A stretch of DNA of 15,741 bases from Nanobdellota archaeon (GCA_038046345.1 JBBSWJ010000027.1:18428-34168), one strand, 5' to 3'. Shown: positions 1,366 through 15,741, counted from the stretch's first letter. A program made the numbers and translations. Notes: generated from the sequence alone by a model not told the origin.

Positions 1366-1399
1366 AAAGATATTTAAATTAATAATGATTTAATTAAGC

Positions 1400-2526: not shown

Positions 2527-2563
2527 TTAAGTTTATAATATTAAACAACCTCATTTCATTTTT

Positions 2564-3166
2564 ATGCCAGACTACTTTAGCATTTTCTTTAAACGTGAGA
2601 AAGACAGAACATTAGTCCAAACCGTGCCTAGTATTATTATCCATAACGGAAGATGGAAAGATCTTGTAGACATGGCTGATAGTGTACTCGCGCACCACAG
2701 CACACCTAAAAGCCTAACAATTACATTGTTACGAACTGGCATAGAAGGACGTACCGGCGAGTATAATATTAATTTTGGTAAATTATTTGAATATTACCTC
2801 GCCTTTCCATGGCTAACAGCAGCTAGGGATTATCTAAGGGGGATTATTAAGCATGGTGTGAAATATATTCTTGTATCTGGTCCTTGTGATGATAGTAAAA
2901 GAGCCGGTGATGTATTACTAACTACTTTAGGGGATCGTGCTATGCTCACATTAGAAGGCAGAGTTGATGCTCTCGCAGAACTAGCAGATAAAAATCCAGG
3001 TAAGCTATGGACAATATCAATCTCACCAATAATTCCTGATAATCCTGAAGAACATAAACATGAAATGTATGCCCTCCAAGACCAACATGCCCCGTTTAAT
3101 GATAAAGTAGTTTATGTTGATGCATCAGCATTTTTAAAAATTATAGACTCTCAATCACCTGCCTGA
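2564..3166 (+). CDS. Hypothetical soluble protein, no family recognised
   Basis: 200-aa ATG-initiated ORF with its own TATA-like TTTATAAT at 2532-2539 and globular alpha/beta-like composition. Confidence 0.7.
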   Translation: MPDYFSIFFKREKDRTLVQTVPSIIIHNGRWKDLVDMADSVLAHHSTPKSLTITLLRTGIEGRTGEYNINFGKLFEYYLAFPWLTAARDYLRGIIKHGVKYILVSGPCDDSKRAGDVLLTTLGDRAMLTLEGRVDALAELADKNPGKLWTISISPIIPDNPEEHKHEMYALQDQHAPFNDKVVYVDASAFLKIIDSQSPA

Positions 3167-3794
3167 TAACCTCAGCCCTCTTTTTACCAATTTTTCCAAC
3201 TTTTTGTAAATCATCCTTAGATGCATTAAACACCTTTTCAACGGAACCAAAATAGCTAAGCATGTTGGATGCAAGTGTTGGTCCAACTCCAGGAAGGGAT
3301 TCAATTACAAACTGTTGTTGTTCTTTCAATGTCAAAGGTTTTTTCTTATGCATTAATGATATATCCCTATGCGGTCCAGATAATCTTTTTGATATAACAC
3401 CGATCAGTGCAGCAGTATCTCGCACATTTCTGGTATATAATATTGGAATCTTTAAGTCTATAGCAATTGCTGCAAGCATTCCACGAATTGCATTAGGATG
3501 AAACTTTCTCAAAGTATAAAAGTTCTGTGATCCTTCAATCACCAGTAATGGTAGTTCAAACTGTTCTTTAAGATCAATTAATTGTTTAATTAATCGCTTA
3601 TCAATCACAGAATTTAAAAAGTCATTACGAGTTTTTTTCTCAATGCCAACTAGCTGGATTTTACCATCACTATTTTCTGTGCTTATAATAAAATCTGCAA
3701 CAAGTAACGATTTAACCTCAACTTCTATATTAAGTTTAGCTAAATGAATAATAATCCCAGATGGTCTTTCACGGTAGTCAACAATTACTTTCAT
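3141..3794 (-). CDS. xpf: ERCC4/XPF-family structure-specific nuclease with C-terminal (HhH)2 domain; equivalent to the Hef nuclease half
   Basis: VIVDYRE, ADFII, EKKTRND (ERKxxxD-like), LLVIEG, and HhH motifs SLPGVGP and VGKIGKKRA. Confidence 0.92.
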   Translation of the reverse strand: MKVIVDYRERPSGIIIHLAKLNIEVEVKSLLVADFIISTENSDGKIQLVGIEKKTRNDFLNSVIDKRLIKQLIDLKEQFELPLLVIEGSQNFYTLRKFHPNAIRGMLAAIAIDLKIPILYTRNVRDTAALIGVISKRLSGPHRDISLMHKKKPLTLKEQQQFVIESLPGVGPTLASNMLSYFGSVEKVFNASKDDLQKVGKIGKKRAEVIRQVIESL

Positions 3795-5305
3795 CAGAAC
3801 TTTTCCAGAGTGTTGTCTTTTAAACTTTTCTTGATATCTTGAAGAACAGTAGACATTGTTTTTTCATCTTTGCGTGATTTCCAAAAAAATGCAGAATCAC
3901 GAGTGTTCTTAGTTACAATATACACTATTCTTCCTGGTTTAATGCGTGCAACTCGCCCCGCACGTTGAATACGCCTAACTGCGGATGCAACATGGTCATA
4001 GAACATAGCAAGATCAAGTCCTTCGATGGATAAGCCTTCTTCCCCTATGCTTGTAGCAACAATCACATTATACTTGCCTGATTCTAATTGTTTAATTGTA
4101 TTTATCTGCTGTTTTTGGGTGATCCCTTCTTTTTGTCCCATAAGTTTTACTGGTCTGGCACCATTGACTGACTCAGCAATTTTCACAAGAGAGTCAACAG
4201 TAGAACGATAATTAGCAAACACAATTGTTTTAGAGTTTGGATTTTGTAAAAATTGTTCAGATAACAAGTTCTTAAACACTATCATCTTAGGATGAACAAC
4301 CCCTGCTTTAGTTAAAGACTGTAAGATGCTAATAGCTTCTAATATTGCTTTATCATCACAAACAGCCTTAGCAGCTTTAGAAGATTCATCTTTTAATTGA
4401 TTTAGATAATTTAATGCTTGTTCAATCCCCTGTGTTTCTAATAATTCCATCGCGTAATCTACTTTTAGCGCTTGCGCAACCACTGATATTCCATAAAAAG
4501 CTGAGGCATTTTTTTTAATTATTTCTTGGCGTAGACGTATTTGAACTGCTAATAAATCTTTTTTGCTTGTAACTGAAGCTGGTTTTCTAAATCCAACTCT
4601 TGATAACTTTTTAACTTTCTCAACGTATACGTCATGCAATAATTTATGAATTTTTTTAATGTTATCGGGCAACTCAACTTCTATAAGATCATATTCTCTG
4701 GATTGAATATAATTTTTTACATCATCATCCTGATCAGTTCTGACTTCAACATCATCAATAAATAGATTAGTGCATATTTCGTTTATTTTCTCTTTTGTAT
4801 GACCAGGAGAAGCAGTTAAAGCAAGTATATGCTTTGTTTTACATTGCGACTCCATGTAAGCTTTAGCAATTACTGTATTGGCAAACTTCATTCTTGATCT
4901 ATGTGCTTCATCTATCACTAATAATGAAACATCATCCAAACTAATACGACTATTTTCCACATCTGACTGGATGGTTTGTGGTGTTGCAATAATTATTAGT
5001 CCAACGTCCCAAAATTTTTTTCTTACTTTAGGCTGCATGGCTCCTGTATAAATTATTATCCTTGAAGATGGTATCGTAGTGTGTTCAATAAAAGTGTTAA
5101 CATGTTGCTGGCATAATGGTTTAGTTGGACTACAAATTAAAACTTTGGAGTTTGGAATATTATTAAGCCGGTCTATTGCTACCATTAAAGAGATTGCTGT
5201 TTTTCCAACACCCGTGGGCAGAACTACTAAAGTATTCTTTTTTATGCAAGTCTTGGAGATATTTTCTTGGTATGCTCTTGGCTTAAAATTTTTTATTGAA
5301 AACAT
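3794..5305 (-). CDS. hef: Hef/FANCM (Mph1)-like SF2 DEAH helicase, helicase half only
   Basis: Q motif PRAYQ, Walker A LPTGVGKT, DEAH, LTASPG, HPK, TSIGEEGL, QRAGR, and the helical insert typical of Hef. Confidence 0.92.
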   Translation of the reverse strand: MFSIKNFKPRAYQENISKTCIKKNTLVVLPTGVGKTAISLMVAIDRLNNIPNSKVLICSPTKPLCQQHVNTFIEHTTIPSSRIIIYTGAMQPKVRKKFWDVGLIIIATPQTIQSDVENSRISLDDVSLLVIDEAHRSRMKFANTVIAKAYMESQCKTKHILALTASPGHTKEKINEICTNLFIDDVEVRTDQDDDVKNYIQSREYDLIEVELPDNIKKIHKLLHDVYVEKVKKLSRVGFRKPASVTSKKDLLAVQIRLRQEIIKKNASAFYGISVVAQALKVDYAMELLETQGIEQALNYLNQLKDESSKAAKAVCDDKAILEAISILQSLTKAGVVHPKMIVFKNLLSEQFLQNPNSKTIVFANYRSTVDSLVKIAESVNGARPVKLMGQKEGITQKQQINTIKQLESGKYNVIVATSIGEEGLSIEGLDLAMFYDHVASAVRRIQRAGRVARIKPGRIVYIVTKNTRDSAFFWKSRKDEKTMSTVLQDIKKSLKDNTLEKF

Positions 5306-5326
5306 GATCGGGGATTGCTACATAAC

Positions 5327-5334
5327 TTTAAATA
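5327..5334. promoter_or_regulatory. Single TATA element centred between divergent genes (bidirectional promoter)
   Basis: TTTAAATA with a palindromic TTTAAA core lies 21 nt from the hef ATG (5305, minus) and 22 nt from ATG 5357 (plus). Confidence 0.55.
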
Positions 5335-5356
5335 GTTTGTTTTTGAGAATTTGGAA

Positions 5357-5620
5357 ATGTTACTTAAACTTTTAGGGGCCATAGATTTGATGACTGGGAT
5401 ATCAGTTGTATTAGTAAAGTTTGATATAAATATCTTTGCAACATTGTTCTTAGTTATATTTGCAATAAAATCTGTCATATTTATTACGAACCCTGCAAGT
5501 TGGATAGATATAATTGCTTTGATAATTTTTGTTTTAGTAATATTCGGAGTTTTTAATATAATTACATGGTTAGCTGTGATATGGGTTTTACAAAAAGGGA
5601 TAGTTAGTTTGGTTGTTTAG
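5357..5620 (+). CDS. Small hydrophobic membrane protein (87 aa, 3-4 TM)
   Basis: The ORF track starts at TTG 5351. ATG 5357 fits TATA spacing better. The protein is almost entirely hydrophobic (MLLKLLGAIDLMTG...LQKGIVSLVV). Confidence 0.8.
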   Translation: MLLKLLGAIDLMTGISVVLVKFDINIFATLFLVIFAIKSVIFITNPASWIDIIALIIFVLVIFGVFNIITWLAVIWVLQKGIVSLVV

Positions 5621-5952
5621 ATGTTATTATTCTTATTACCCTCCCTATATTATTATCATTCATAGCCTATGGATTTTTTAAGCTTAAGAGATGGACAATT
5701 AAATTACTTTTTATATTTTGTGCACTTGGAATTATCCTCACGCTTTTAGTATTACAGCCTTATAGGCATTTGCCTGACCTGTTACAAGGAGCTTACAAAG
5801 GATCATTCGGACCAGAAGACGATAGTTTATTAAATATTATACCGTTCTTATTTGTTATCCTAATTACTCAGGTACCATTTTTTCTCTGGTTGATTATCCC
5901 ATTATTCATTTTAAGAGATGTAAACAAACATAAAAAAGAATTTGTTAATTAA
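5608..5952 (+). pseudogene. Membrane-protein reading frame (~114 codons, 3 hydrophobic segments) lacking a canonical start; pseudogene, frameshifted gene or non-canonical start
   Basis: The frame of the 5770 ORF is open back to 5608 (DVIILITLPILLSFIAYGFFKLKRWTIKLLFIFCALGIILTLLV...). It has no ATG/GTG/TTG before 5770. ATG 5621 is out of frame and stops at 5663-5665. Confidence 0.45.
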
Positions 5953-6695
5953 TACTTTTTATATTTGTAAAAGTAAATAAAAACAATTATCATTGCAAGT
6001 AACAATGCAATAAGGATTGAATAAATCACATTAAGATAAATAGCCAAAACAAATGTTACCCCTATAAAAATAGTCGCAAATATATACAGCGGAATTGAAT
6101 TAAAAAATATTCTCCCGCCTTCAAGTCTAGGTAATGGTAATAGCTGGAAAGAAGCAAAGTATACGCAAATCTTGATAAATTGATCAAACATTCCATTTTG
6201 GTTTAATAACGAAGTAAACATCACCAATAATACGATAGCAAGAATACCAGATAATGCTATTTTAGCTTCTTCAAACCCTTCCATATGAACATATTGTCTT
6301 CCAGCTCTGTAATGCCTTTTTTCAGATTCTTGAAATGATGCTACTAATGGTAAAAAAAATGTACCCCTAGAAATAAAAGTTACAAAAAAGCTTATTATAG
6401 GTCCAATGTACAAGTTTTTTAGCTTAGACTTTTCAATAGCTTTGCCTCGATTTATATAAAATCTTTGAATGCACCATAGGCTAAAAGTAATTACAATAGA
6501 ATATTTTTTAGCAACAATCTTTTGTGTTATAAAGTATGTTCCAAAAATAACACAAACAGAAAGGAATACAACTAAAATATTCTTAAAGTACTCTCCTGCT
6601 TGAAATGTTTCATTTCCGTCATTAAAACCAAAGATAAAAGTTAATAATAAAACAGCTAAAATCACGTGGTTTAATTCTTTTTTTGAAAATTCCAT
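5949..6695 (-). CDS. Peptidase M50 (site-2 protease)-like membrane protein, catalytic motifs degenerate
   Basis: Matches the short archaeal M50 layout (MEFSKKEL..VILAVLLLTFIF; KIVAKKY; KIALSG; QLLPLPRLEGGRIF). HExxH is replaced by YFITQ and NxxPxxxLDG by QLLPLPRLEG. Confidence 0.7.
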   Translation of the reverse strand: MEFSKKELNHVILAVLLLTFIFGFNDGNETFQAGEYFKNILVVFLSVCVIFGTYFITQKIVAKKYSIVITFSLWCIQRFYINRGKAIEKSKLKNLYIGPIISFFVTFISRGTFFLPLVASFQESEKRHYRAGRQYVHMEGFEEAKIALSGILAIVLLVMFTSLLNQNGMFDQFIKICVYFASFQLLPLPRLEGGRIFFNSIPLYIFATIFIGVTFVLAIYLNVIYSILIALLLAMIIVFIYFYKYKKY

Positions 6696-7363
6696 TGTTC
6701 TTGTTTTTCGATTAGTCTTATTATTTCATCCTCATGGCCTGCACCAACTACTGCAACAATACTATTATTAGCCTGCATAATTCTATATAAATTTTTTGCC
6801 ATGTATTCATTTCTTTCAGATATAAGCACGCTGTAAACTGAGGGGTATCTTTCTTTGATTTTATTGGTAAGTTTTTCAATAAGCGCTTTATCGGGTACTT
6901 TATTTAGATTGATCTTAATCTTTTCTCTCTTTACTAATCCAATGATAATATCTTTAACAAACCTAAACTTTTCATGCCATGTAATACGCCTGGAAAGCTT
7001 CTTCATTGTAATTCTAACATCTTGATCGATCAGCACAAGTTCTGCCCCGATTTGTTTAGACGAATCCACTGCAGCTTTCATATCATCTCCAGGGGTTACA
7101 TTAACAATCTTGCCTAATTTTTTTTCAAGATACGCTCCAATTAGATTGAATAAGAACCCGTTTAGTCCAAGTTGGCTTATGTCCCGAAGGCGTAATTTAC
7201 GCTTTTCCTTGCTTAACAAAGAGTTTAGCCTTATAGGATCAAGCTCAATTGCCACAACATTAGGCTTGCTGGTTAATATAACTCTTCTTACTTCTTTTAC
7301 TGATTCAATAGCTATATGAGACGTTCCAATTAATATTAGTTTTTTGTATTGTTGCATCAGCAT
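6671..7363 (-). CDS. traB: TraB/PrgY/GumN (Tiki) family protein, soluble form
   Basis: LIGTSH, VVAIELDPIR, PGDDMKAA, LVLIDQDVRIT, ERNEYMA and VAVVGAGH motifs. Start could be ATG 7357 instead of 7363. Confidence 0.9.
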   Translation of the reverse strand: MLMQQYKKLILIGTSHIAIESVKEVRRVILTSKPNVVAIELDPIRLNSLLSKEKRKLRLRDISQLGLNGFLFNLIGAYLEKKLGKIVNVTPGDDMKAAVDSSKQIGAELVLIDQDVRITMKKLSRRITWHEKFRFVKDIIIGLVKREKIKINLNKVPDKALIEKLTNKIKERYPSVYSVLISERNEYMAKNLYRIMQANNSIVAVVGAGHEDEIIRLIEKQEQWNFQKKN

Positions 7364-7401: not shown

Positions 7402-7683
7402 ATGGTTCTTAAACTAAAACACGTGTCAGATATGTATGGCATGAGTGTCTTCACAGATGTTGGTGACTACTTTGGTGATATTGAAGAAGGGATATTACAA
7501 GAAAATAAAGTTTTTGGGTGGAGAGTAAAGGCAACAAAGGCGTCATTCCTTAACAAAGTGCTTGGTGGTGCAAAGGGAGTTATTGTCCCGCATCAGATGG
7601 TAAAAGCAATTGGGGATATTATGATCATCAACAAAGCAGCAATACCAAGTTACGAAGAAAAAGAAGAAGAATTAAAAGATTAG
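7402..7683 (+). CDS. Stand-alone PRC-barrel domain protein (CdpB-like)
   Basis: GMSVFTDVGDYFGDIEE and GVIVPHQMVKAIGDIMII match the archaeal PRC-barrel pattern. Acidic tail. Confidence 0.85.
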   Translation: MVLKLKHVSDMYGMSVFTDVGDYFGDIEEGILQENKVFGWRVKATKASFLNKVLGGAKGVIVPHQMVKAIGDIMIINKAAIPSYEEKEEELKD

Positions 7684-7755: not shown

Positions 7756-8307
7756 ATGGCTTCACCATTAGAAAATGCAGTTCAATTCCTTAAGGACTTT
7801 GGTTTTTTTGATGTGGTTTTACCATTCTTATTTATTTTTGCCTTAGTTTTCGCAGTTTTAGAAAAAACAAAGATATTTGGAACAGTAAAAGAGGGCGACG
7901 AACAAAAACCATTGCAAAGAGTTAATGCAATGATTGCATTTGTAATTGCTTTATTCTTTGTTGCTGTGCCGTCCTTAGTACAAACAATAAAAATATCACT
8001 GCCACAGATTGCACTCTTGCTTATAGTTATTGTAACATTTTTAATGCTCATTGGCAGCTTAGCTACAGGAGCAAATCCATTAGACTTAACCGCAGACAGT
8101 TACAAATGGTGGAAAAGATTTTTGTATCTTATTATCTTATTAAGCGTCTCAGCAATATTCTTGAATAGTTTTGGATGGTTAGACCCAATATTAGACTATA
8201 TAGTTGATGAATGGCAGGACACATTCATTGTTAGTATGGTATTTTTAATCATCATTGTTACCTCAATATTATATATAGTAGGCAAGGGAGAAGGTAAGAA
8301 AGAATAA
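7756..8307 (+). CDS. Polytopic membrane protein, paralogue 1 of 3
   Basis: About 5 TM segments. N-terminal motif FDVVLPFLFIFALVFAVLEKTKIFG is shared with the next two genes. Confidence 0.88.
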   Translation: MASPLENAVQFLKDFGFFDVVLPFLFIFALVFAVLEKTKIFGTVKEGDEQKPLQRVNAMIAFVIALFFVAVPSLVQTIKISLPQIALLLIVIVTFLMLIGSLATGANPLDLTADSYKWWKRFLYLIILLSVSAIFLNSFGWLDPILDYIVDEWQDTFIVSMVFLIIIVTSILYIVGKGEGKKE

Positions 8308-8308
8308 T

Positions 8309-8884
8309 ATGGCAACAACTGAATTAGGCGGATTCATTAGAAACTTAGAAGAATTTGGGATTTATGAAGTGGCTTTACCATTTCTTTTGGTATTTACAAT
8401 AATCTTTGCAATACTCCAAAAATCTAAAATACTGGGCGAAAGCGTAGATAAACACCCCATCAAGAATCTAAATGTAGTCATATCATTAGTAATGGCCTTT
8501 TTCTTTGTTAGAAATGAAAACCTAGTTACCATAGTAAACAGATTCCTGCCAAACGTAAGCTTATTCATGGTGGTTATATTAATGTTCTTATTACTGATAG
8601 GCTTGGTATATGGCAGTGAGTACAAAGGACTGGGCGGGGCATTTTTGTTCATAGGCGCAATACTCTCAGTTGTATTTATAATCTGGAGCTTAAGCTCTGA
8701 TTCGTTAGGCAAAAATAACACATTCAATCTTCCAAGATGGGCAACTGATATAAGCCCGGACACTAAAACGATTATTATAGTAATTGCAGTAATATTCTTA
8801 CTTGTCTGGTGGCTTTCAAGAGACAATAGCGGAGGTTTCACCGCCCCTGACTGGTCAAAACCGGGTAGTTGGTATAATAAATAA
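8309..8884 (+). CDS. Polytopic membrane protein, paralogue 2 of 3
   Basis: YEVALPFLLVFTIIFAILQKSKILG...NVVISLVMAFFFV...LPNVSLFMVVILMFLLLIG. 1-nt gap from paralogue 1. Confidence 0.88.
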   Translation: MATTELGGFIRNLEEFGIYEVALPFLLVFTIIFAILQKSKILGESVDKHPIKNLNVVISLVMAFFFVRNENLVTIVNRFLPNVSLFMVVILMFLLLIGLVYGSEYKGLGGAFLFIGAILSVVFIIWSLSSDSLGKNNTFNLPRWATDISPDTKTIIIVIAVIFLLVWWLSRDNSGGFTAPDWSKPGSWYNK

Positions 8885-8885
8885 A

Positions 8886-9419
8886 ATGGCAATTCCGCTT
8901 GAATCCGCAATAAGTTTCACAGAGTCTATTAAACCAATATTTGTATTCATAATGGTTTGGTTGATAATTTATGGAACTCTAAGGGCTACAAAAGTATTAT
9001 TCAATGGAGATGAAAGATTAAGCGCCTTATTAGCTTTTATTTTTGGAATACTTTTTATCTTGTTTCCAGGTTTAACTGAAGCAATAAGCATAGCAGTGCC
9101 ATGGGTTGCGATATTAATAATGGTAATAATGTTCATAATCTTAATATTCATGTTTGCTGGAGTAAAAGGTGAGACCATAACAAAAAATATATTCCAGGAA
9201 AGCACATGGGTATGGGTTATTGTCCTTATTGTTATTGGTATATTCTTTGCAGCACTAAGCCAAGTGTATGGACCAATAATATCAACGCTATCTTCAGATC
9301 AAGCAGCTCAGCAGGGTTTAACATATGATGTGGCTAAGATAATATTTAATCCAAAATTATTAGGCTTCTTATTGATTATAGTTATAGCAAGTCAAACCGT
9401 AAAATTAATAGTACGCTGA
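8886..9419 (+). CDS. Polytopic membrane protein, paralogue 3 of 3 (start corrected from 8802 to ATG 8886)
   Basis: MAIPLESAISF parallels MASPLENAVQF of paralogue 1. PIFVFIMVWLIIYGTLRATKVLFNG and VPWVAILIMVIMFIILI align with the other two. 1-nt gap from paralogue 2. Confidence 0.85.
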   Translation: MAIPLESAISFTESIKPIFVFIMVWLIIYGTLRATKVLFNGDERLSALLAFIFGILFILFPGLTEAISIAVPWVAILIMVIMFIILIFMFAGVKGETITKNIFQESTWVWVIVLIVIGIFFAALSQVYGPIISTLSSDQAAQQGLTYDVAKIIFNPKLLGFLLIIVIASQTVKLIVR

Positions 9420-10058
9420 TCAAAATTTCTTTATCTTTTCTGTAACTTTATTTAATTCTTTAATATTAGATGTTAATGGTTCCATAATGTTTTGGAAGAC
9501 TTTCTCAAGTGCTTTCATTTCTGTTGTCATATCCTGAACACCTTGAGAATACTCATCAACTTTTCCAAGTATTGCTCCCTGTAACATATCAAAACGTCTG
9601 CCTAGGCGGATTAATTCTTGTTTTACTGCTACAATATCGTCATTAACACGGGATCTCCAAATCTCTAGATCAGTCATAGTATCAGAAATACGATTCCATC
9701 GTTCCTGCACAACTGATTCAACAATTTCGTTGACATTTGAGTTTATATCCACAACTGCTTGTTGTAGAAACTGAGGTTGTTGCATGATTGGTTTCGATTG
9801 CTGCAATCTTTGAGGCTCAGAATATTCAAAATCAGGTGATGGTACTGGAACTTCATCATCCAGTAATGATGGCTGCAAATCACTTTCAGATCTGCGAGGC
9901 TCACTGCCCACTCCATACTTAATACCAACTTGGCTCATTGCATCAGATATTTCCTTTTCTGAGTATCCACCCTCTTCTAAACTGCTAACAATCTGATCAT
10001 CAGACCAGCCTGTTTGTTTCATTTTAGAAACTTCACTGATCAACGGAGCGTTTACCAA
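9420..10058 (-). CDS. Hypothetical soluble protein: small N-terminal helical domain, P/Q/S/acidic low-complexity linker, C-terminal coiled coil
   Basis: TTG start with SD-like GTGAGGGA just upstream. Tripartite composition is visible in the translation. Confidence 0.85.
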   Translation of the reverse strand: MVNAPLISEVSKMKQTGWSDDQIVSSLEEGGYSEKEISDAMSQVGIKYGVGSEPRRSESDLQPSLLDDEVPVPSPDFEYSEPQRLQQSKPIMQQPQFLQQAVVDINSNVNEIVESVVQERWNRISDTMTDLEIWRSRVNDDIVAVKQELIRLGRRFDMLQGAILGKVDEYSQGVQDMTTEMKALEKVFQNIMEPLTSNIKELNKVTEKIKKF

Positions 10059-10413
10059 CTTCGTCCCTCACAATATTCTTAACGTCTTCTTCGGTAACAA
10101 ACCTCATAGGGTTCCATAAATCCACATACTTTTCAAGTAGCTTCAGTTTATCCTTCCTAGCAAATTGTTTAGTTTCTTTGATCATATCCTGCATTGCTTC
10201 CTTTACCCTTAGCATCTCAATTTTAATGTCTCTTAATTCTGAGTTCATAATATGTAATTGCTGTGTTAATTGTTTGTATTCTATGATCATATTCTTATTT
10301 ATCACCAATACTCTTTCAGACATAAGGGTTTGCTTGCTTTCCAGTCCTCTAACTCTGCTAATTACTTCGTTTAAAATATATCCTGGATCTGAAGTAGGTT
10401 GTTCTAATGCCAT
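10033..10413 (-). CDS. Hypothetical coiled-coil protein, 126 aa (start corrected from 10515 to ATG 10413)
   Basis: The 34 upstream codons run through the AT-rich promoter and overlap the ATPase start. MALEQPTSD... is followed by a long heptad-like helix and KYVDLWNPMRFVT. Confidence 0.85.
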   Translation of the reverse strand: MALEQPTSDPGYILNEVISRVRGLESKQTLMSERVLVINKNMIIEYKQLTQQLHIMNSELRDIKIEMLRVKEAMQDMIKETKQFARKDKLKLLEKYVDLWNPMRFVTEEDVKNIVRDEVGKRSVDQ

Positions 10414-10440
10414 GATTTTTTTCCGAAAACTATATATTTT

Positions 10441-10475
10441 CTTATTATAACTTACTGATGAGATGTTATAAAAAG
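10441..10475. promoter_or_regulatory. Inverted repeat made of two outward-facing TATA boxes (divergent promoter)
   Basis: CTTATTATAAC (10441-10451) and GTTATAAAAAG (10465-10475) are reverse complements at 10 of 11 positions, with a 13-nt spacer. Confidence 0.6.
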
Positions 10476-10500
10476 TTGTGTAACTCTGCAGGGTGGTAAC

Positions 10501-12792
10501 ATGCCAAATGAACAAAAAAGAGAATATGAAATATTAAAACAAGGACCTGAAGATATAATGCGTATAAACGCAGAAGCATGGGCATTCAGTCCTTCACTTG
10601 AAGATAATCCTCTAGTAATGTCTACAACAATTGATCATCTGATAGAATCACCTGGTGTGGCAAGTATAATCTTTTCTCAAAGAAAACAGTACCATTATGA
10701 TTACCATCAAACACAAATGCTAATTGAAATTGCTAATATTTACAAAATGTTGGTAAGACAAACAAAAATATTAAGCCTGCAGGCTTTAGGGCTAAGCACA
10801 ATAGCTTCCGCATATTTGCCAACATGGCAGGCGCAAATACAGGAGATATTGCTAAACCATATGCGGCAGGATCCAATAGGAGCATATATCTTACTAAAAC
10901 GGTTGATACGCCAAGAAAAAATAAAGTTAGCTAAATGCCAAGCAGAGCTACATGATTCATATCAAGGTTATGTAGATATCTTAGCCTACTTGTACAATCT
11001 CCTGGACAGCACCCAATTAATCAGCACAGTTAAACAAGATTTATCAGGGCACAGTGTAGGAGACAGAGAGATTTACAAAACAATTTTTAGACCGGCAATT
11101 ACTCCTGATTTTATTTACACAAGATTAATGGCTCAACCGCCAATCAATGGCATTGAGAAAGATGTCTATAGCGTAGGAAACAGCGATATAGTAGTATACG
11201 ACCAATTTCATAACATAAAACATCTCTATCATCTAACACCACCAGAATTTAAGCTAACAGAAGACAAGTATCAGCTATTAGACTTAGCAAGAAATGTATT
11301 ATCAGAGCATAGGCCCCGTGAAGAAGAGTTCTTAGAGCCAGAAAGATTAAGAAAAACATTCTATAACATAGGGCGCGATTTACTCCAGGAATTAGGAGAT
11401 AACAGAGGATTAGAACTATCCCAGCTAGAATTGCATGAGCTTGCCACAATATTAGTAAGATACACAATAGGTTTTGGATTGTTAGAAGTATTATTAGAAG
11501 ATCAAAAAATACAGGATATAACAGTAAACAGCCCGCCGGGACAATCCCCAATATTTATAGTGCACGAAGAATTTGGAGATTGTGAAACAAATATTATTCC
11601 TTCCCGAGAGGATACCGAATCATGGGCCACAAAATTTAGAATACTGTCGGGAAGACCGCTTGATGAAGCAAATCCTATACTTGATACCGAACTAAGCATA
11701 CCTGGTGCTAGGGCAAGAGTAGCAATAGTTCAATCACCGCTAAACCCGTTCGGAATATCTTACGCTTTCAGAAGGCATAGGGACAAACCTTGGACCTTGC
11801 CATTATTCATAAACGCTAAAATGTTAAATCCACTCGCAGGAGGGCTTCTAAGTTTCTTTCTTGATAATGGCAGAGCTCTAATATTTGGAGGCAGCAGATC
11901 CAGTGGAAAAAGCTCGTTGCTTGGCAGTGGTATACTTGAGATTATGCGGCGTTTTAGGATAATAACAGTGGAAGATACTTTAGAACTAAGTCATGAAGCC
12001 TACAGAAAACTTGGTTTTAATATTCAAGCCATGAAAGTGAGGTCAGCACTAACAAAGGGAGGTACGGAAGTAGCAGCAGATGAGGGGGTAAGAACAAGCT
12101 TAAGACTTGGTGATTCAGCGCTTATTATAGGAGAGATAAGATCCACTGAAAGTCTTGCACTATTTGAAGCAATGAGGATTGGAGCGCTAGCGAATGTAGT
12201 TGCTGGAACAATACACGCAGAAAGTCCATATGGTGTGTATGATCGTCTTGTAAATGACCTTGGCGTTCCAAAAACAAGTTTTAAAGCTGCTGATATCATA
12301 ATTATCTCAAACCCAATAAGAAGTCCTGACGGTTTAAGCAGGAAAAGAAGAGTTGTTCAGATAACTGAAGTAAGAAAGCATTGGGAAAACGACCCCCTGG
12401 CAGAAAGAGGATTCGTAGACTTGATGAAGTATAATCCAATAACTGATGAGTTAGAACCAACCCCTGAATTGATAAACGGAGATAGTGAAGTTATAAAATC
12501 TATTGCAGGGCGAGTAAGTGAATGGGCTGGTAATTGGGATGCAATATGGGGGAACATTCAGTTAAGAGCTGCAATACAAAAAACAATTGTAGAATATTCA
12601 GCAAGGTATAACTCACCTGAAATGTTAGAAGCATCATTCGTAATCCAGTCAAACGATCAGTTGCATAAACTGATAGAAGAAGTAAGAACAGTAGAGGGTG
12701 CTATCGACAATAAGCATGTTTACCTGTTATGGGAAGATTGGATGAAGAGAGCAATTAAGCAATTAAGCGAAGAAAAAGAGGGAGCAGTTTGA
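10501..12792 (+). CDS. Type II/IV secretion / type IV filament assembly ATPase (VirB11/ArlI/PilB/TadA family) with long N-terminal extension
   Basis: LLEDQKIQDITVN, RARVAIV, YAFRRH, Walker A GGSRSSGKSS, Asp box TVEDTLEL, SLRLGDSALIIGEIRS (Walker B), His box GTIHAES, and RRVVQITEV. Confidence 0.93.
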   Translation: MPNEQKREYEILKQGPEDIMRINAEAWAFSPSLEDNPLVMSTTIDHLIESPGVASIIFSQRKQYHYDYHQTQMLIEIANIYKMLVRQTKILSLQALGLSTIASAYLPTWQAQIQEILLNHMRQDPIGAYILLKRLIRQEKIKLAKCQAELHDSYQGYVDILAYLYNLLDSTQLISTVKQDLSGHSVGDREIYKTIFRPAITPDFIYTRLMAQPPINGIEKDVYSVGNSDIVVYDQFHNIKHLYHLTPPEFKLTEDKYQLLDLARNVLSEHRPREEEFLEPERLRKTFYNIGRDLLQELGDNRGLELSQLELHELATILVRYTIGFGLLEVLLEDQKIQDITVNSPPGQSPIFIVHEEFGDCETNIIPSREDTESWATKFRILSGRPLDEANPILDTELSIPGARARVAIVQSPLNPFGISYAFRRHRDKPWTLPLFINAKMLNPLAGGLLSFFLDNGRALIFGGSRSSGKSSLLGSGILEIMRRFRIITVEDTLELSHEAYRKLGFNIQAMKVRSALTKGGTEVAADEGVRTSLRLGDSALIIGEIRSTESLALFEAMRIGALANVVAGTIHAESPYGVYDRLVNDLGVPKTSFKAADIIIISNPIRSPDGLSRKRRVVQITEVRKHWENDPLAERGFVDLMKYNPITDELEPTPELINGDSEVIKSIAGRVSEWAGNWDAIWGNIQLRAAIQKTIVEYSARYNSPEMLEASFVIQSNDQLHKLIEEVRTVEGAIDNKHVYLLWEDWMKRAIKQLSEEKEGAV

Positions 12793-14954
12793 GCAGAGAA
12801 GAAGAAATTCTAAGAAAATATCAATACAAGCTTGGTGGAGATACAGGTGGTTTATCAGACAATGAAACATTCTCAAGAGAGTATGAGATATTTAGAGAAG
12901 AAGCACTTGATAATACTGACACTTTTTATGCAAGAATAGCAAGAAAAGCTGGAAGGATAATAACAGTAAATCCTAAACCTGAAGAAGAAGAGAAATTACA
13001 AGAATCAATTGAATGGGCTCATTTAACCATGCGCCCGAGTGACGCAACTAGTTTAGCCGCTTTAACTGGTTTGATGATAATAGTATTAGCCATAGCGTCC
13101 ATTCTGCTACAAGCCGTACTATTTTATATGAGTCAAAATGACTCCGCCCTGTTAGGATCAATCAATTTATTCCTGCCTTTATTTGTGATGCTGTTAGGTG
13201 CGATTATAATCAGGCCTTTAAGTAAATATCCTCATTATGTAGCAAGTAAATGGCGATTAAGAGTGAGCAATCAAATGGTTCTTTGTATTCTTTACATTGT
13301 AATGTATATGCGGCATACAAGCAACCTGGAGCATGCAATAAAATTTGCAGGATTACATGTAGGTCAGCCATTATCATTGGATTTAAGAAAAGTTTTTTGG
13401 GATGTTGCTGCTGATAAGTATTCTACAATAAAAGAAAGTTTAGATGCTTACTTGTCTAAATGGCAAAAATATAATCTTGAATTTGTAGAATCATTCAATT
13501 TGATAAGTGGAAGTCTTTCAGAACCAAACGAAACAAGGAGGGTGCAGTTACTTGAAAAATCATTGGATGTAATGTTAGATGGTACATATGATAAAATGTT
13601 GCATTTTGCACATGAGTTAAAATCACCATTAACAATTCTTTATTATTTGGGGATCCTTCTTCCAATACTTGGACTTGTGATATTCCCCCTGATAAGTGCA
13701 TTACTGAGCGGCCTTGTAAAATGGTATCATCTAGCAATATTGTATAATCTTCTAATTCCATTGGGAGTTTATTTTCTAGGATATAACATCTTATCAAAAA
13801 GATCAACAGGATATGGTGACACTTCAATAAACAATCAGTTCAAGTTTTACAATCCACCAGGTCTAAAATTAATAACTGGATTTCTGATAACCATTTTTTT
13901 AGCGGCAGGATTTCTTCCTATAATACTTCACTTACTGTATCCAGGTTATGATCCAATACTTTTTGAGGGCAGCACATTCATAGAAGGCAGATTACTTGAC
14001 TACAAATGTGATTACAATGTACAAACTGGAGCTCAAAGTTGTGTTGGTCCATATGGCTTATTCTCGCTTATATTAAGTCTGCTGATACCATTAGGTGTCG
14101 GATTAGGAATAGGTATGTATTACAAAGCTAAAACAAAGGAGCTTATCCTGATAAGAAACAAAACAAAAGATCTTGAAACAGAATTTATTGGCAGCTTATT
14201 TCAGCTTGGTAATAGAATAGCAGATGGTATCCCTGTAGAAGTTGCATTTTCAAAAGTATTAAAGGATATGAAGGGAACACCGAGCGGGGAGTTTTTTTCC
14301 ATAGCAGATTATAACATGAAACAGTTAGGTATGAGCTTGGAAGACGCATTGTTTGATAAAAAATATGGTGCAGTGAACTTTTTCCCATCATCCTTAGTAC
14401 AGACAAGTATGAGAATATTAACAGAAGGGGCTGGCAAAGGACCGCAAGCTGCATCAAAAAGTATGATAAGCATATCGGCTTATGTTGACAGAATTAATAA
14501 AGTAAATCAAAGGCTGAGGGATTTGTTAGCAGAAATTACAACAGGGATGAAAACTCAAGTAACATTCATGACTCCATTAATTGCTGGGATAGTTGTTGGT
14601 GTGTCAAGCATGCTGGTAAACATACTCAACCAGCTTGGGGAAAAAATAAGCCAAGCACAAGGGAGTCAAGCAGATTTAACATCGTTACAAACAAGTTTGA
14701 GCGCTTTTAATATAGAAAATGTTATTCCAAGTTTTTTCTTTCAGGTAGTTGTTGGAGTATTTGTTCTTGAAGTAGGATTTGTTTTAACCTATTTAAGCAG
14801 CACTATAGAAAATGGAGTAGATTGGCTTGCAGAGAAACATGCATTAGGAAAAAGTTTAGTGTTTGGGATGTTGTTATACTCTGCAATAAGTTTTTTTGGG
14901 ATTATAATATTTGCAGTGCTAGCCGGGGGGCTTGGAAACTTTGGCGGAACTTAA
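12789..14954 (+). CDS. Type IV filament membrane platform protein (ArlJ/PilC/TadB-TadC-like, two T2SSF-like repeats)
   Basis: TTG start with SD GAGGGAG, overlapping the ATPase stop by 4 nt. Two cytoplasmic helical domains (SNLEHAIKFA...; LFQLGNRIADGIPVEVAF...) are each followed by TM clusters. Canonical position after the ATPase. Confidence 0.88.
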   Translation: MSREEEILRKYQYKLGGDTGGLSDNETFSREYEIFREEALDNTDTFYARIARKAGRIITVNPKPEEEEKLQESIEWAHLTMRPSDATSLAALTGLMIIVLAIASILLQAVLFYMSQNDSALLGSINLFLPLFVMLLGAIIIRPLSKYPHYVASKWRLRVSNQMVLCILYIVMYMRHTSNLEHAIKFAGLHVGQPLSLDLRKVFWDVAADKYSTIKESLDAYLSKWQKYNLEFVESFNLISGSLSEPNETRRVQLLEKSLDVMLDGTYDKMLHFAHELKSPLTILYYLGILLPILGLVIFPLISALLSGLVKWYHLAILYNLLIPLGVYFLGYNILSKRSTGYGDTSINNQFKFYNPPGLKLITGFLITIFLAAGFLPIILHLLYPGYDPILFEGSTFIEGRLLDYKCDYNVQTGAQSCVGPYGLFSLILSLLIPLGVGLGIGMYYKAKTKELILIRNKTKDLETEFIGSLFQLGNRIADGIPVEVAFSKVLKDMKGTPSGEFFSIADYNMKQLGMSLEDALFDKKYGAVNFFPSSLVQTSMRILTEGAGKGPQAASKSMISISAYVDRINKVNQRLRDLLAEITTGMKTQVTFMTPLIAGIVVGVSSMLVNILNQLGEKISQAQGSQADLTSLQTSLSAFNIENVIPSFFFQVVVGVFVLEVGFVLTYLSSTIENGVDWLAEKHALGKSLVFGMLLYSAISFFGIIIFAVLAGGLGNFGGT

Positions 14955-14955
14955 A

Positions 14956-15070
14956 TGACAGGCAAACATTTGTGACATACTCTTACACACTGAAGTGTGG
15001 AGCTTCCTGTTTCGACGACAGAACTATTGTTCTATCTCCACAGGCTTCAACCGAATGTCCTTCGGCAGGT
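14956..15070 (-). ncRNA. Predicted TnpB omegaRNA/reRNA (scaffold overlapping the tnpB 3' end plus ~16-nt flanking guide); 5' boundary uncertain
   Basis: Minus-strand hairpins CCGAA-GGACA-UUCGG (15065-15051), GAUAGAAC-AAUA-GUUCUGUC (15036-15017, includes a U-G pair) and CACAC-UUCA-GUGUG. GUGGAG (15041-15036) can pair with CUCCAC (15002-14997). Established TnpB biology places the guide just beyond the right end. Confidence 0.65.
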
Positions 15071-15741
15071 AATGAAAGCTTACTATGAGCACGATTCAAA
15101 ATGTTAAAAGCTGAATTTAAATCACGAGAAACAGAAAGTCCACAGTTAGGACAATCATGTTTCCTATTGGATAAATTCTTTGGAACTGCTTTTCCACATC
15201 CTGAACATTCTTGCGTAGTGCCTCTTGGTTCAACAGCTATTAGTTTACATCCAGCTTCCTCCGCTTTATATGTAAGTAATTGCCTGAACTTATTCCATGA
15301 AGCATCATTAATTGAACGATTTAGATACTTATTCTTCATTTTAGACACTTGTAAATCCTCAATAGCAATTAATGAATATAAACTAACTAATCTTTTAGAC
15401 TCCTTATGCAGAAAATCCAGCCTTTGATTAGATACCCTTTCATACAGTTTAGCTAATCTTAATCTTGATTTAAACCTATTAGAAGAACCTCTTTTCTTCT
15501 TTGATAATAATCTTGATTTAGATTTTAGTTTCTCTAATGATGATCTTAAATATCTAGGGTTAACTATTTCAAGTCCGTCAGACAATGTAGCAAATGTAGC
15601 TAATCCTACATCTATGCCAACATGCTTATCAGATGTATGCTTAGGGGGAATAGTATGAACTTCACAACCGAATATAGCATACCATTTATTAGCAGGAGTT
15701 TTCATAAGAGTAAGAGTTTTAACTTTACCTTTAATAGCCCT
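14972..15741 (-). mobile_element. IS200/IS605-superfamily (IS1341/IS605-like) element, right end and tnpB; left part outside window
   Basis: TnpB ORF followed on the minus strand by ...CAGGAAGCTCCACACTTCAGTGTGTAAGAGTATGTCAC. Subterminal hairpin CACAC-TTCA-GTGTG and terminal TCAC at 14975-14972. Confidence 0.85.
14983..15741 (-). CDS. tnpB: TnpB RNA-guided endonuclease (5'-truncated by the window edge; 15705 is not the real start)
   Basis: The frame is open to the window edge (RAIKGKVKTLTLMKTPANKWYAIF). RuvC-I VGIDVG, RuvC-II IAIEDL, zinc finger CSGC...CPNC, RuvC-III RDLNSAFNI. Confidence 0.95.
   Translation of the reverse strand, partial: RAIKGKVKTLTLMKTPANKWYAIFGCEVHTIPPKHTSDKHVGIDVGLATFATLSDGLEIVNPRYLRSSLEKLKSKSRLLSKKKRGSSNRFKSRLRLAKLYERVSNQRLDFLHKESKRLVSLYSLIAIEDLQVSKMKNKYLNRSINDASWNKFRQLLTYKAEEAGCKLIAVEPRGTTQECSGCGKAVPKNLSNRKHDCPNCGLSVSRDLNSAFNILNRAHSKLSLPAEGHSVEACGDRTIVLSSKQEAPHFSV

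What the first reader, a model, noticed from the sequence alone, without database searches (positions are those of the whole stretch)
7756..14954. Candidate uncharacterised DPANN type IV filament/secretion-like machine: ATPase, platform, two coiled-coil proteins and three paralogous membrane proteins, with no pilins nearby
Seen: a 7-gene block of a VirB11/ArlI-like ATPase and an ArlJ/PilC-like platform, two soluble coiled-coil genes transcribed divergently from mirror-image promoters, and three tandem paralogous membrane proteins whose operon ends with a 0-nt gap against the coiled-coil operon. Established: archaeal archaellum, Aap, Ups and bindosome loci pair ArlI/PilB with ArlJ/PilC and usually carry class III prepilins or ArlF/G/H/X accessories; none of these is recognisable here. 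Inference: the five unknown genes are dedicated accessory subunits (cytoplasmic scaffold plus hetero-oligomeric membrane ring) of a lineage-specific surface machine. In host-dependent DPANN cells it could mediate host attachment, a cytoplasmic bridge or macromolecule transfer.
Basis: partly seen in the sequence, partly recalled or inferred. Interest (0 to 1): 0.8.

Follow-up and report, generated by a model that had tools for sequence, protein, structure and literature searches.

The report
Core of a DPANN pilus machine
These seven genes are the conserved motor end of a type IV pilus-like machine found in almost every Nanoarchaeia (Woesearchaeota-type DPANN) archaeon; the pilin genes look missing only because the contig ends here, and the two coiled-coil and three sister membrane proteins remain accessory parts of unknown role.

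Summary
The seven genes are real, at the stated coordinates. The reading "machine without pilins" does not hold.

**Core parts.**
- The 763-aa protein is a CpaF/ArlI/GspE-type secretion ATPase with about 295 extra N-terminal residues.
- The 721-aa membrane protein has no Pfam hit. Profile-profile and fold comparison show it is a fused two-domain T2SSF (TadB/C, PilC) platform.

**Pilins.** The window stops at a contig end inside a TnpB gene directly after the platform gene. In 32 of 37 related loci, 2-7 genes with class III signal-like N-termini follow the platform. This genome's homologues of those genes lie on contigs C13 and C20.

**Distribution.**
- The platform occurs in 200 of 201 sampled genomes of the class, the smaller coiled-coil protein in 61 of 61, and the membrane family in 59 of 61 (usually three tandem copies).
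- *Nanoarchaeum equitans* keeps all parts, scattered.
- Where the block breaks, the membrane trio stays beside the coiled-coil pair.

**Prior work.** Hamm et al. 2024 already described CpaF-TadC-coiled-coil loci in these lineages. This scan has also reported the same block on other DNA. I found no paper describing the membrane trio, and its fold matches no solved structure.

Verdict: new member of a known kind, moderate interest.

The parts
7756..8307 (+). M1: 183-aa membrane protein with 5 predicted TM helices, first of three tandem paralogues.
   Evidence: ORF. Paralogy to M2 and M3. TM prediction. The AF2 model has pLDDT 86.6 and shows an N-terminal amphipathic helix, 5 TM helices and a beta-hairpin at 43-52. 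No Pfam or NCBIfam family and no fold match; best Z was 5.8. Orthologues in 59 of 61 genomes of the class.
8309..8884 (+). M2: 191-aa paralogue. Its start lies 1 nt after the M1 stop.
   Evidence: 35% identical to M1, E 5e-22. A separate orthologue group is kept in fixed order in related loci.
8886..9419 (+). M3: 177-aa paralogue and the most diverged. Its ATG lies 1 nt after the M2 stop.
   Evidence: 31% identical to M1 over the N-terminal 99 residues, E 6e-12. Orthologues. A *Nanoarchaeum equitans* protein (L124:110-652) matches the M3 profile at 1e-14.
9420..10058 (-). CC1: 212-aa soluble protein with a small N-terminal helical domain, a Pro/Gln-rich linker and a conserved C-terminal coiled-coil domain of about 110 aa.
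   Evidence: No TM segment. Alignment A5 shows the three-part layout and supports the TTG start at 10058. Its profile hits only coiled coils in the PDB: short tail fibre 8.8e-7, sigma-1 6gaj 0.065 and 6gao 0.22. An *N. equitans* orthologue scores 1.6e-20.
10033..10413 (-). CC2: 126-aa soluble coiled-coil protein, first gene of the divergent CC operon.
   Evidence: ATG at 10413. Single copy in 61 of 61 genomes. Its PDB profile hits are coiled coils only, all weak. Stays adjacent to CC1 even where the block is broken.
10414..10500 (.). Divergent promoter spacer, 87 nt.
   Evidence: TATA-like boxes face both genes, and GGTGG precedes ATG 10501. Two motifs recur in related loci: 'CGAAAACTAT(T/A)TA' on the CC2 side, and 'TTAAAA..TGT...AGTGGTAA' before the ATPase start. 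That these are promoters is inferred from sequence only.
10501..12792 (+). Secretion ATPase of the CpaF/ArlI/GspE type, 763 aa. It carries an N-terminal region of about 295 aa that matched only ATPases from Nanoarchaeia-type archaea in the one search run, plus a conserved C-terminal tail.
   Evidence: Pfam T2SSE 3.7e-14. NCBIfam FlaI 3e-35 and TadA 8e-31, both below the equivalog cut-offs. PDB hits: afGspE 1e-24, CpaF 4e-19, FlaI 3.5e-17, all aligning from residue ~292. Walker A G464-K470-S472, E491/D492, G544-E545-R547 and T570-H572 are invariant in 30 orthologues. All named hits to the N-terminal region are Nanoarchaeia/Woesearchaeota ATPases.
12789..14954 (+). Fused two-domain T2SSF (TadB/TadC, PilC, ArlJ-like) platform protein, 721 aa, about 9 TM helices.
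   Evidence: No Pfam or NCBIfam hit. hhalign against the T2SSF family of the same order: N half (132-309) 94%, E 1e-7; C half (458-621) 97%, E 7e-11. The AF2 model (pLDDT 77.8) at residues ~450-586 matches PilC-N 2whn Z 11.7 (rmsd 2.4, 103/103), EpsF 2vma Z 10.3, SpoIIIAB Z 8.9 and TcpE Z 8.5. The *N. equitans* orthologue passes the Pfam T2SSF cut-off at 32.3 bits. Full-length match to a haloarchaeal 'secretion system protein', E 3.4e-41.

Best explanation
The block is the motor and accessory half of a type IV filament (pilus-like) assembly system that is close to universal in the class Nanoarchaeia.

**Shown**
- A catalytically intact CpaF/ArlI-type ATPase.
- Translationally coupled to it, a fused two-domain T2SSF platform.
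- A divergent operon of two soluble coiled-coil proteins, and convergent to that operon three paralogous 5-TM proteins.
- All four kinds of part are found throughout the class sample, and they are linked in most genomes.
- In relatives the platform gene is followed by an array of genes with class III signal-like N-termini. In this genome the array is detached: its homologues lie on contigs C13 and C20. A TnpB gene and the contig end follow the platform gene directly.

**Inferred mechanism**
1. Prepilins are cut by the A24 peptidase encoded on C7.
2. The ATPase hexamer drives the platform to lift them from the membrane into a thin surface filament.
3. CC1/CC2 form a cytoplasmic scaffold or regulator at the motor. 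This is functionally like ArlX/ArlCDE, or the coiled-coil protein of haloarchaeal subclade 4F.
4. M1-M3 form a hetero-oligomeric membrane sub-complex that couples to the coiled-coil pair. This is functionally like PilN/O or GspL/M, without homology.

The filament's use, whether attachment to a host or a surface or DNA uptake, is not resolved.
For: **ATPase**
- Pfam, NCBIfam and PDB matches, and invariant catalytic motifs.

**Platform**
- Both halves are T2SSF by hhalign.
- The five best fold matches are all T2SSF cytoplasmic domains.
- The *N. equitans* orthologue passes the Pfam cut-off. The G205 orthologue hits T2SSF weakly in both halves.

**Pilins**
- Class III signal-like ORFs make up 157 of 477 ORFs in the 8 kb after the platform. 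The rate is 4 of 258 in the upstream flank and 30 of 1013 genome-wide.
- 32 of 37 loci have two or more such ORFs.
- Own-genome homologues are on C13 (beginning at the contig end) and C20.
- An A24 peptidase is present in this genome.

**Distribution**
- Platform in 200 of 201 genomes, CC2 in 61 of 61, M family in 59 of 61 with a mode of 3 tandem copies.

**Linkage**
- Among related loci with enough upstream sequence, 46 of 51 have the CC pair adjacent and 41 of 51 have all three M genes.
- G205 and G117 keep the 7-gene block. No PRC, TraB, S2P-like or Hef homologue lies in the fetched stretch around it (about 5 kb upstream), although these genes flank the block in closer relatives.
- Across the class sample, CC2 lies within 10 kb of the platform on the opposite strand in 38 of 52 genomes. 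The M trio lies within ~5 kb of CC2 in 38 of 58. I counted both by hand from the coordinates.
- In G053, G071, G075, G081 and G085 the M trio and CC pair stay together while the ATPase-platform pair lies elsewhere.
- *N. equitans* keeps the ATPase (46% identity), platform, CC1, CC2 and 4-5 M-like genes, all scattered.

**Literature**
- Hamm et al. 2024 describe CpaF-TadC-coiled-coil loci in these lineages and detect the coiled-coil proteins in a nanohaloarchaeal proteome.
Against: - No pilin gene lies in the window itself. The physical join of C27 to C13 is not shown.
- The downstream 'pilins' are called from N-terminal motif and context only. No Pfam or NCBIfam model recognises them and no fold was predicted for them.
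- The genome has a second, canonical pilus locus on C24 with its own pilins. Which pilins each motor uses is therefore open.
- Every part is near-universal in the class, so co-occurrence alone does not discriminate.
- In closer relatives the unrelated upstream genes (PRC barrel, TraB, Hef) are syntenic too.
- The M trio, the CC pair and the motor pair lie at three separate sites in family f36 and are scattered in *N. equitans*.
- Nothing shows physical contact between M, CC and the motor.
Confidence: 0.72

Rival explanations
1. This is a filament-less, secretion- or transfer-type machine that uses the ATPase and platform with M1-M3 as a membrane ring and CC1/CC2 as a scaffold, without pilins. 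An example would be a cell-to-cell channel, functionally like the SpoIIIA feeding tube.
For: - No pilin gene lies in the window.
- SpoIIIAB is among the fold matches of the platform domain at Z 8.9.
- *N. equitans* keeps the system but gave no A24 peptidase hit. Makarova et al. 2016 say the same.
- Five of 37 relatives have at most one pilin-like gene after the platform.
Against: - The lack of pilins in the window coincides with a contig end inside a TnpB gene.
- 32 of 37 relatives carry 2-7 pilin-like genes right after the platform.
- Homologues of those genes exist in this genome, as does an A24 peptidase.
- SpoIIIAB is simply a member of the T2SSF fold. PilC, EpsF and TcpE score as well or better.
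Confidence: 0.1
2. Only the ATPase, the platform and perhaps the coiled-coil pair belong to the pilus machine. M1-M3 are an unrelated membrane complex, such as a transporter or envelope factor, that sits nearby through inherited gene order.
For: - Unrelated genes upstream (PRC barrel, TraB, S2P-like, Hef) are as syntenic as M in the closer relatives.
- The M trio lies apart from the motor in f36, G042 and other genomes, and is scattered in *N. equitans*.
- M has no recognisable pilus-related fold or family.
- Hamm et al. 2024 do not mention such proteins in the main text.
Against: - The trio stays convergent to the CC pair in 38 of 58 genomes from many families.
- That includes five genomes where the motor pair has moved away.
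- In G205, G117 and G060 it stays with the block. In G205 and G117 no homologue of the usual upstream flank genes lies in the fetched stretch.
Confidence: 0.2
3. The coiled-coil proteins are exported attachment fibres, as Hamm et al. suggest from their likeness to reovirus sigma-1, and not cytoplasmic scaffold parts.
For: - The CC1 profile matches trimeric fibre coiled coils: phage short tail fibre 8.8e-7, sigma-1 0.065 and 0.22.
- The suggestion is made in PMC11291902.
Against: - CC1 and CC2 have no signal peptide, no class III motif and no TM segment.
- Matches between coiled coils largely reflect heptad composition.
- Makarova et al. 2016 read the coiled-coil protein of haloarchaeal 4F loci as intracellular.
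Confidence: 0.12

Closest known systems
Type IV pilus-like 'CCP loci' of cluster 2 DPANN archaea (Hamm et al. 2024, Nat Commun, PMC11291902)
   Same: - A CpaF-type ATPase and a TadC platform lie next to genes for coiled-coil proteins.
- The loci are reported for Woesearchaeota, Pacearchaeota, Nanoarchaeota and others.
- The coiled coils resemble sigma-1 (6GAO). The CC1 profile also hits sigma-1 weakly.
   Different: - The main text does not mention the three 5-TM paralogues or the downstream array of pilin-like genes.
- I could not compare CC1/CC2 directly with NAR1_03220 and NAR1_01690.
Archaeal T4P subclade/subsystem 4F (Makarova et al. 2016, PMC4858521; PLoS Genet 2026, PMC13705601)
   Same: - The ATPases carry an extra, variable N-terminal domain.
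- Haloarchaeal loci hold an intracellular coiled-coil protein (arCOG07564).
[quoted passage not shown]
- A *Haloterrigena* plasmid ATPase and its fused platform match this pair at E 7e-53 and 3.4e-41.
   Different: - No tree was built, so membership of 4F is not shown.
- The haloarchaeal neighbours tested are not related to CC1/CC2 or to M.
- Here the pilin-like genes can be found next to the platform in relatives.
Tad/Flp pilus (CpaF, TadB, TadC) and archaeal Epd-type 'system 1' pili
   Same: - The same ATPase family. CpaF is among the best solved relatives, 4e-19.
- The same T2SSF platform fold.
- Small pilins with a class III signal.
   Different: - Tad and system 1 use two separate platform genes. 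This genome's other locus on C24 does so too. Here both domains are fused in one 721-aa protein with about 9 TM helices.
- No TadZ, secretin or TadE/F/G homologues.
- Extra M and CC genes.
Archaellum motor (ArlI, ArlJ, ArlH, ArlX/ArlCDE, ArlF/G)
   Same: - ArlI-like ATPase and ArlJ-like platform.
- A cytoplasmic coiled-coil partner is conceivable as an ArlX analogue.
   Different: - The NCBIfam FlaI equivalog scores 121.9 bits against a cut-off of 550.
- Pfam and NCBIfam scans of the seven block proteins gave no Arl family other than the sub-threshold FlaI hit.
- The downstream genes are short pilin-like proteins, not archaellins.
PilM/N/O and GspL/M assembly sub-complexes
   Same: Possible functional analogy: membrane and cytoplasmic parts that couple the ATPase to the platform.
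   Different: No sequence or fold likeness. PilN/O and GspL/M are single-pass proteins, whereas M1-M3 have 5 TM helices.

Membership tests
Type IV filament (T4F/TFF) superfamily machine | Hexameric secretion ATPase of the T2SSE/VirB11 type with Walker A, Walker B, Asp box and His box | tested here: met
   Pfam T2SSE at 52.6 bits against a cut-off of 24.9. PDB hits to afGspE, CpaF and FlaI. Catalytic motifs are invariant in 30 orthologues. The oligomeric state was not tested.
Type IV filament (T4F/TFF) superfamily machine | Polytopic platform protein with T2SSF domains | tested here: met
   hhalign gives 94% for the N half and 97% for the C half. VIA gives Z 11.7 to PilC-N and 10.3 to EpsF. The *N. 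equitans* orthologue scores 32.3 bits against the Pfam cut-off of 25.2. The window's own protein has no direct Pfam hit.
Type IV filament (T4F/TFF) superfamily machine | Pilins with a class III signal peptide encoded with or for the system | tested here: inconclusive
   None in the window. In 32 of 37 relatives, 2-7 motif-positive genes follow the platform. Homologues lie on C13 and C20 of this genome. They are recognised by motif only: no Pfam or NCBIfam hit and no fold prediction.
Type IV filament (T4F/TFF) superfamily machine | Class III signal (A24) prepilin peptidase in the genome | tested here: met
   PF01478 hit at G000:C7:26414-26743, 55.5 bits, over the cut-off. No hit was found in *N. 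equitans*.
Cluster 2 DPANN CpaF-TadC-coiled-coil locus (Hamm et al. 2024) | Adjacent CpaF-like ATPase, TadC-like platform and one or two coiled-coil protein genes in a Woesearchaeota/Nanoarchaeota-type genome | tested here: met
   Gene order. Coiled-coil nature. The paper was read.
Cluster 2 DPANN CpaF-TadC-coiled-coil locus (Hamm et al. 2024) | Sequence relatedness of CC1/CC2 to the published coiled-coil proteins (NAR1_03220, NAR1_01690) | not tested
Archaeal T4P subclade 4F (Makarova et al. 2016) | ATPase branches inside subclade 4F in an archaeal secretion-ATPase tree | not tested
   No reference set from outside the phylum could be fetched. The only pointers are haloarchaeal relatives and the paper's remark on nanoarchaea.
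Archaellum | ArlI equivalog score | tested here: not met
   The NCBIfam FlaI model scores 121.9 bits against a cut-off of 550.
Archaellum | Archaellum-specific partners ArlH, ArlF, ArlG and ArlX/ArlCDE | not tested
   Pfam and NCBIfam scans of the seven block proteins listed no Arl family besides the sub-threshold FlaI hit. No genome-wide search for these partners was run.
PilMNO / GspLM assembly sub-complex (for M1-M3 and CC1/CC2) | Fold or sequence likeness to PilN/PilO/GspL/GspM | tested here: inconclusive
   These families were not listed in the Pfam, NCBIfam or fold searches of M1. CC1 and CC2 were not folded.

The most novel reading that the evidence does not exclude
M1-M3 and CC1/CC2 together form a previously undescribed accessory module of type IV filament machines: a hetero-trimeric 5-TM membrane unit coupled to a cytoplasmic coiled-coil pair. 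It is fixed in nearly all Nanoarchaeia, including the 0.49-Mb *N. equitans*, and is needed for a filament on which these host-dependent cells rely. That would make it a lineage-defining part of the DPANN cell-contact apparatus.
Probability: 0.4. Interest if true: 0.6.

Novelty: new member of a known kind. Interest (0 to 1): 0.4.

Why it matters
DPANN archaea live attached to other cells. How they hold on, and what passes between the partners, is an open question.

- **A nearly invariant candidate apparatus.** This machine is one of the very few surface systems kept by almost every genome of the class. It persists in genomes of 0.5 Mb, and its ATPase is conserved enough to host inteins.
- **A gap in published surveys.** Standard models miss its platform and its pilin-like proteins. 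This fits the published view that these archaea have 'unordered' or pilin-less type IV filament genes.
- **Concrete targets.** The three sister membrane proteins and the two coiled-coil proteins are testable candidates for parts that set this machine apart from ordinary archaeal pili. *N. equitans*, *Nanoclepta* and *Nanobdella* offer cultivated systems for the test.

Tried and rejected
**Searches and predictions that gave nothing**
- Foldseek of the platform model against the PDB gave nothing at E <= 0.001. A PDB sequence-profile search with the first platform alignment gave no hit. The low-diversity alignment A2 showed only the C-terminal T2SSF domain. The more diverse A3 was needed for the N half.
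- Complex prediction with the ATPase N-region (1-300), CC1 and CC2 returned no verdict, score 0.00. It is not used as evidence either way.
- The M1 model gave no fold match in VIA wide (best Z 5.8, helical hairpins only) or Foldseek. The ESM Atlas listed only unnamed archaeal clusters for M1 and for the putative major pilin.
- Pfam and NCBIfam scans of the downstream pilin-like proteins gave nothing above threshold.
- The *Haloterrigena* genes next to the related ATPase-platform pair showed no likeness to the CC1, CC2 or M profiles.
- No RNA holder was listed among the sequencing runs, so nothing can be said on expression.

**What the laid contigs showed**
- Laid contigs bridge the platform-TnpB junction and run up to 2.3 kb past the window end. 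They do not show what follows.
- The TnpB sequence has no second copy in the binned genome. A multi-copy repeat as the cause of the contig break is therefore not supported.

The contexts of distant platform relatives outside the class could not be fetched.

**Ideas considered and dropped**
- *M proteins as odd pilins.* They have a conserved Gly followed by a hydrophobic helix. But they have five TM helices and no basic residue before the Gly.
- *M proteins as prepilin peptidases.* They have no conserved Asp pair.
- *The archaellum reading*.
Full report
**1. What is in the window**

The window is G000:C27:18428-34168, and contig C27 is 34168 bases long. The window therefore ends exactly at a contig end. 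The genome has 0.82 Mb in 35 contigs and is 97% complete. Every close relative found is labelled Woesearchaeota, Nanoarchaeia or Nanoarchaeota. The DNA occurs in groundwater metagenomes of at least two studies.

| Gene | Coordinates | Strand |
|---|---|---|
| M1 | 7756-8307 | + |
| M2 | 8309-8884 | + |
| M3 | 8886-9419 | + |
| CC1 | 9420-10058 | - |
| CC2 | 10033-10413 | - |
| ATPase | 10501-12792 | + |
| Platform | 12789-14954 | + |

- The M genes are separated by 1 nt.
- The M3 and CC1 stop codons abut.
- The ATPase and platform genes overlap by 4 nt.
- The alignment of CC1 orthologues supports the TTG start at 10058.

**2. The two core parts**

*ATPase.*
- It passes Pfam T2SSE.
- Its nearest NCBIfam models are archaellum FlaI (3e-35) and TadA (8e-31), both far below the equivalog cut-offs.
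- Its nearest solved relatives are *Archaeoglobus* GspE, CpaF and FlaI. All align from about residue 292 onward.
- Walker A, the Asp box, Walker B and the His box are invariant in 30 orthologues. Mean column identity is 68%, with *N. equitans* at 42%.
- The first ~295 residues have no family. All named hits to this region are ATPases of Nanoarchaeia-type archaea.

*Platform.*
- The 721-aa membrane protein has no Pfam or NCBIfam hit, and Foldseek finds nothing. Four independent lines nevertheless identify it as a T2SSF platform.
- With a diverse alignment (A3), hhalign matches both halves to the canonical T2SSF proteins of the same order. The N half (132-309) scores 94%, E 1e-7. The C half (458-621) scores 97%, E 7e-11.
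- The exhaustive fold search puts five T2SSF cytoplasmic domains on top: PilC-N Z 11.7 (rmsd 2.4, 103 of 103 residues), the PilC model, EpsF Z 10.3, SpoIIIAB Z 8.9 and TcpE Z 8.5.
- The *N. equitans* orthologue passes the Pfam T2SSF cut-off.
- The family aligns over 563 columns with a haloarchaeal 'secretion system protein', E 3.4e-41. That gene lies next to an ATPase which matches this one at E 7e-53.

The pair is not confined to DPANN.

**3. The 'missing' pilins**

*The contig break.*
- Directly after the platform gene lies a TnpB gene cut off by the contig end.
- Contigs from four groundwater runs bridge the platform-TnpB junction and continue up to 2.3 kb beyond the window. What lies beyond is not visible to me.

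*Relatives.*
- In related loci the platform gene is followed by a same-strand run of genes with the class III signal pattern: a short basic head, Gly or Ala, then an uncharged hydrophobic helix. An example is 'MKLNKRG|AELSINVIIIAILVIL' in the closed genome GW2011_AR20.
- With a fixed motif rule, 157 of 477 ORFs in the 8 kb after the platform are positive.
- The rate is 4 of 258 in the upstream flank and 30 of 1013 across this genome.
- 32 of 37 loci have two or more such ORFs, and 29 have four or more.

*This genome.*
- The genes that follow the platform in the closest relative (L007) have homologues here on C13 and on C20:40027-42187.
- On C13 they read inward from the contig end, and the first gene is truncated by that end.
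- The genome also has an A24 prepilin peptidase.

'No pilins nearby' is thus a property of the assembly, and perhaps of an insertion at this spot. It is not a property of the system. The pilin-like proteins match no Pfam or NCBIfam model. This fits the remark of Makarova et al. 2016 that the cognate pilins of the nanoarchaeal ATPases could not be identified, though I did not test that link.

**4. The five unknown genes**

*M1-M3.*
- They are paralogues with an N-terminal amphipathic helix, five TM helices and a conserved 'G-x-[FY]-[DE]-V-x-L-P-F-L-L-V-F' start of TM1.
- From the distribution of charged residues (positive-inside rule, by my reading of the sequence) the topology is N-out, C-in.
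- The AF2 model is confident (pLDDT 86.6) but matches no solved fold.
- The genome has exactly three copies, all in this window.

*CC1 and CC2.*
- Both are soluble.
- CC1 has a small helical head, a Pro/Gln-rich linker and a conserved helical domain of about 110 aa. CC2 is a 126-aa helical protein.
- Their profiles match only coiled coils in the PDB, including reovirus sigma-1 weakly. Sigma-1 is the structure that Hamm et al. 2024 named for their DPANN coiled-coil proteins.

**5. Distribution and linkage**

*Presence across the class.*

| Part | Genomes with it | Note |
|---|---|---|
| Platform | 200 of 201 | high-quality genomes spread over the class |
| CC2 | 61 of 61 | one match in 58 of the 61 genomes |
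| M family | 59 of 61 | most often three tandem copies |

*Gene order in 80 related loci.*
- The order M1-M2-M3 > < CC1-CC2, ATPase-platform > holds almost wherever the contig reaches far enough.
- The unrelated upstream genes (PRC barrel, TraB, S2P-like, Hef) are conserved there too. Close-range synteny alone is therefore weak evidence.

*Evidence from more distant genomes.*
- G205 and G117 keep the seven-gene block. No homologue of the upstream flank genes lies in the fetched stretch around it, about 5 kb upstream.
- In family f36 the block is split exactly along operon borders into an M trio, a CC pair and the motor pair.
- Comparing coordinates by hand gave two counts. CC2 lies within 10 kb of the platform, always on the opposite strand, in 38 of 52 genomes. 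The M trio lies within about 5 kb of CC2 in 38 of 58.
- In five genomes (G053, G071, G075, G081, G085) M and CC remain together although the motor pair is elsewhere. G042 keeps CC with the motor but without M.

The two pairwise links therefore recur in different contexts. This supports one functional unit, with the coiled-coil pair as the hinge.

*N. equitans.* The handle's single contig has this organism's genome length, 490885 bp. It keeps the ATPase, platform, CC1, CC2 and 4-5 M-like genes, all scattered.

**6. What is known already**

- Hamm et al. 2024 (PMC11291902) reported two conserved type IV pilus-like loci with CpaF, TadC and coiled-coil proteins across cluster 2 DPANN, Woesearchaeota included. 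They detected the coiled-coil proteins in a nanohaloarchaeal proteome.
- Makarova et al. 2016 (PMC4858521) described subclade 4F. It has ATPases with extra N-terminal domains and an intracellular coiled-coil protein in haloarchaea, and its ATPase clade is present in nanoarchaea.
- The 2026 census (PMC13705601) finds DPANN type IV filament genes mostly 'unordered', with the ATPase and platform adjacent.
- None of these texts mentions the M trio.
- This scan has reported the same block and the same trio on other genomes (e1-713360, e1-1494125, e1-2869776), and the downstream pilin arrays as well (e1-3189912, e1-1362174, e1-1209992). My tests agree with those notes.

**7. Mechanism and verdict**

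Shown:
- an intact motor ATPase;
- a bona fide platform;
- the conserved neighbourhood;
- pilin-like arrays in relatives;
- the peptidase in the genome.

Inferred:
- that the motor assembles a filament from those proteins;
- that CC1/CC2 act at the cytoplasmic face;
- that M1-M3 form a membrane sub-complex coupled to them;
- that the filament serves contact with a host or uptake of DNA.

The single complex prediction gave no verdict.

The finding is a real, well-conserved type IV pilus-like core of a kind already published. It carries one accessory family, M1-M3, that I did not find described in the papers I searched. I rate it a new member of a known kind, interest 0.4.

Noticed in passing
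window 14983-15741 (-), running off the contig end: A TnpB gene (OrfB_IS605 plus the Cas12f1-like TNB domain) lies directly after the platform gene and is cut by the end of contig C27. Contigs of four groundwater runs from two studies bridge the platform-TnpB junction. The binned genome holds no second copy.
   Followed up: partly
L042:455-6394, L050:2864-6682, L066:4950-9335 and nine other related loci: 12 of 79 orthologues of the ATPase are 1260-1980 aa long. The three scanned against Pfam (L042, L050, L066) each match the intein splicing and LAGLIDADG endonuclease domains, and L042 shows two stretches of each. The window's own ATPase has none.
   Followed up: partly
window 7402-7683 (+): A 93-aa PRC-barrel protein lies 73 nt upstream of M1 on the same strand. 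It is 53-81% identical across relatives and present in 42 of 46 loci that reach far enough. From memory, small archaeal PRC-barrel proteins (CdpB) act in cell division. Whether this one belongs to the M operon is open.
   Followed up: no
window 10414-10500 and the same spacer in L007-L086: The CC2/ATPase spacer carries motifs conserved across genomes. 'CGAAAACTAT(T/A)TA' lies close to the CC2 start. 'TTAAAA..TGT..' followed by 'AGTGGTAA' lies just before the ATPase ATG. They look like divergent promoters plus a ribosome-binding site.
   Followed up: partly
G000:C24:7390-14623: The genome's second, canonical pilus locus. It has a 520-aa ATPase, two separate T2SSF genes (428 and 290 aa) and at least five pilins with 'KG|VSPLIATVL'-type signals. 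It fits the description of 'system 1' (two platform genes, PMC13705601).
   Followed up: partly
G000:C8:8062-9876 (-): A third T2SSE-family ATPase, 604 aa. Its N-terminus looks PIN-like ('FIIDTSVVIE...'). From memory it resembles the MJ1533/PilT-like group, which Makarova et al. 2016 say is not linked to secretion systems.
   Followed up: no
L145 (Haloterrigena turkmenica plasmid pHTUR04, 16292-20060): A haloarchaeal plasmid carries an ATPase and a fused 604-aa platform that are clear full-length relatives of the window's pair (E 7e-53 and 3.4e-41). They sit beside an AAA ATPase, a DEAD-box helicase and ParA.
   Followed up: partly
window 241-7363: Upstream genes: a PAN-like proteasomal AAA ATPase (241-1365), a LigT phosphoesterase (2017-2526), a split Hef (ERCC4 nuclease 3141-3794 and helicase 3794-5305), and a soluble TraB/PrgY protein (6671-7363) overlapping a 248-aa membrane protein without a family hit (5949-6695). 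This order is kept in many relatives.
   Followed up: no
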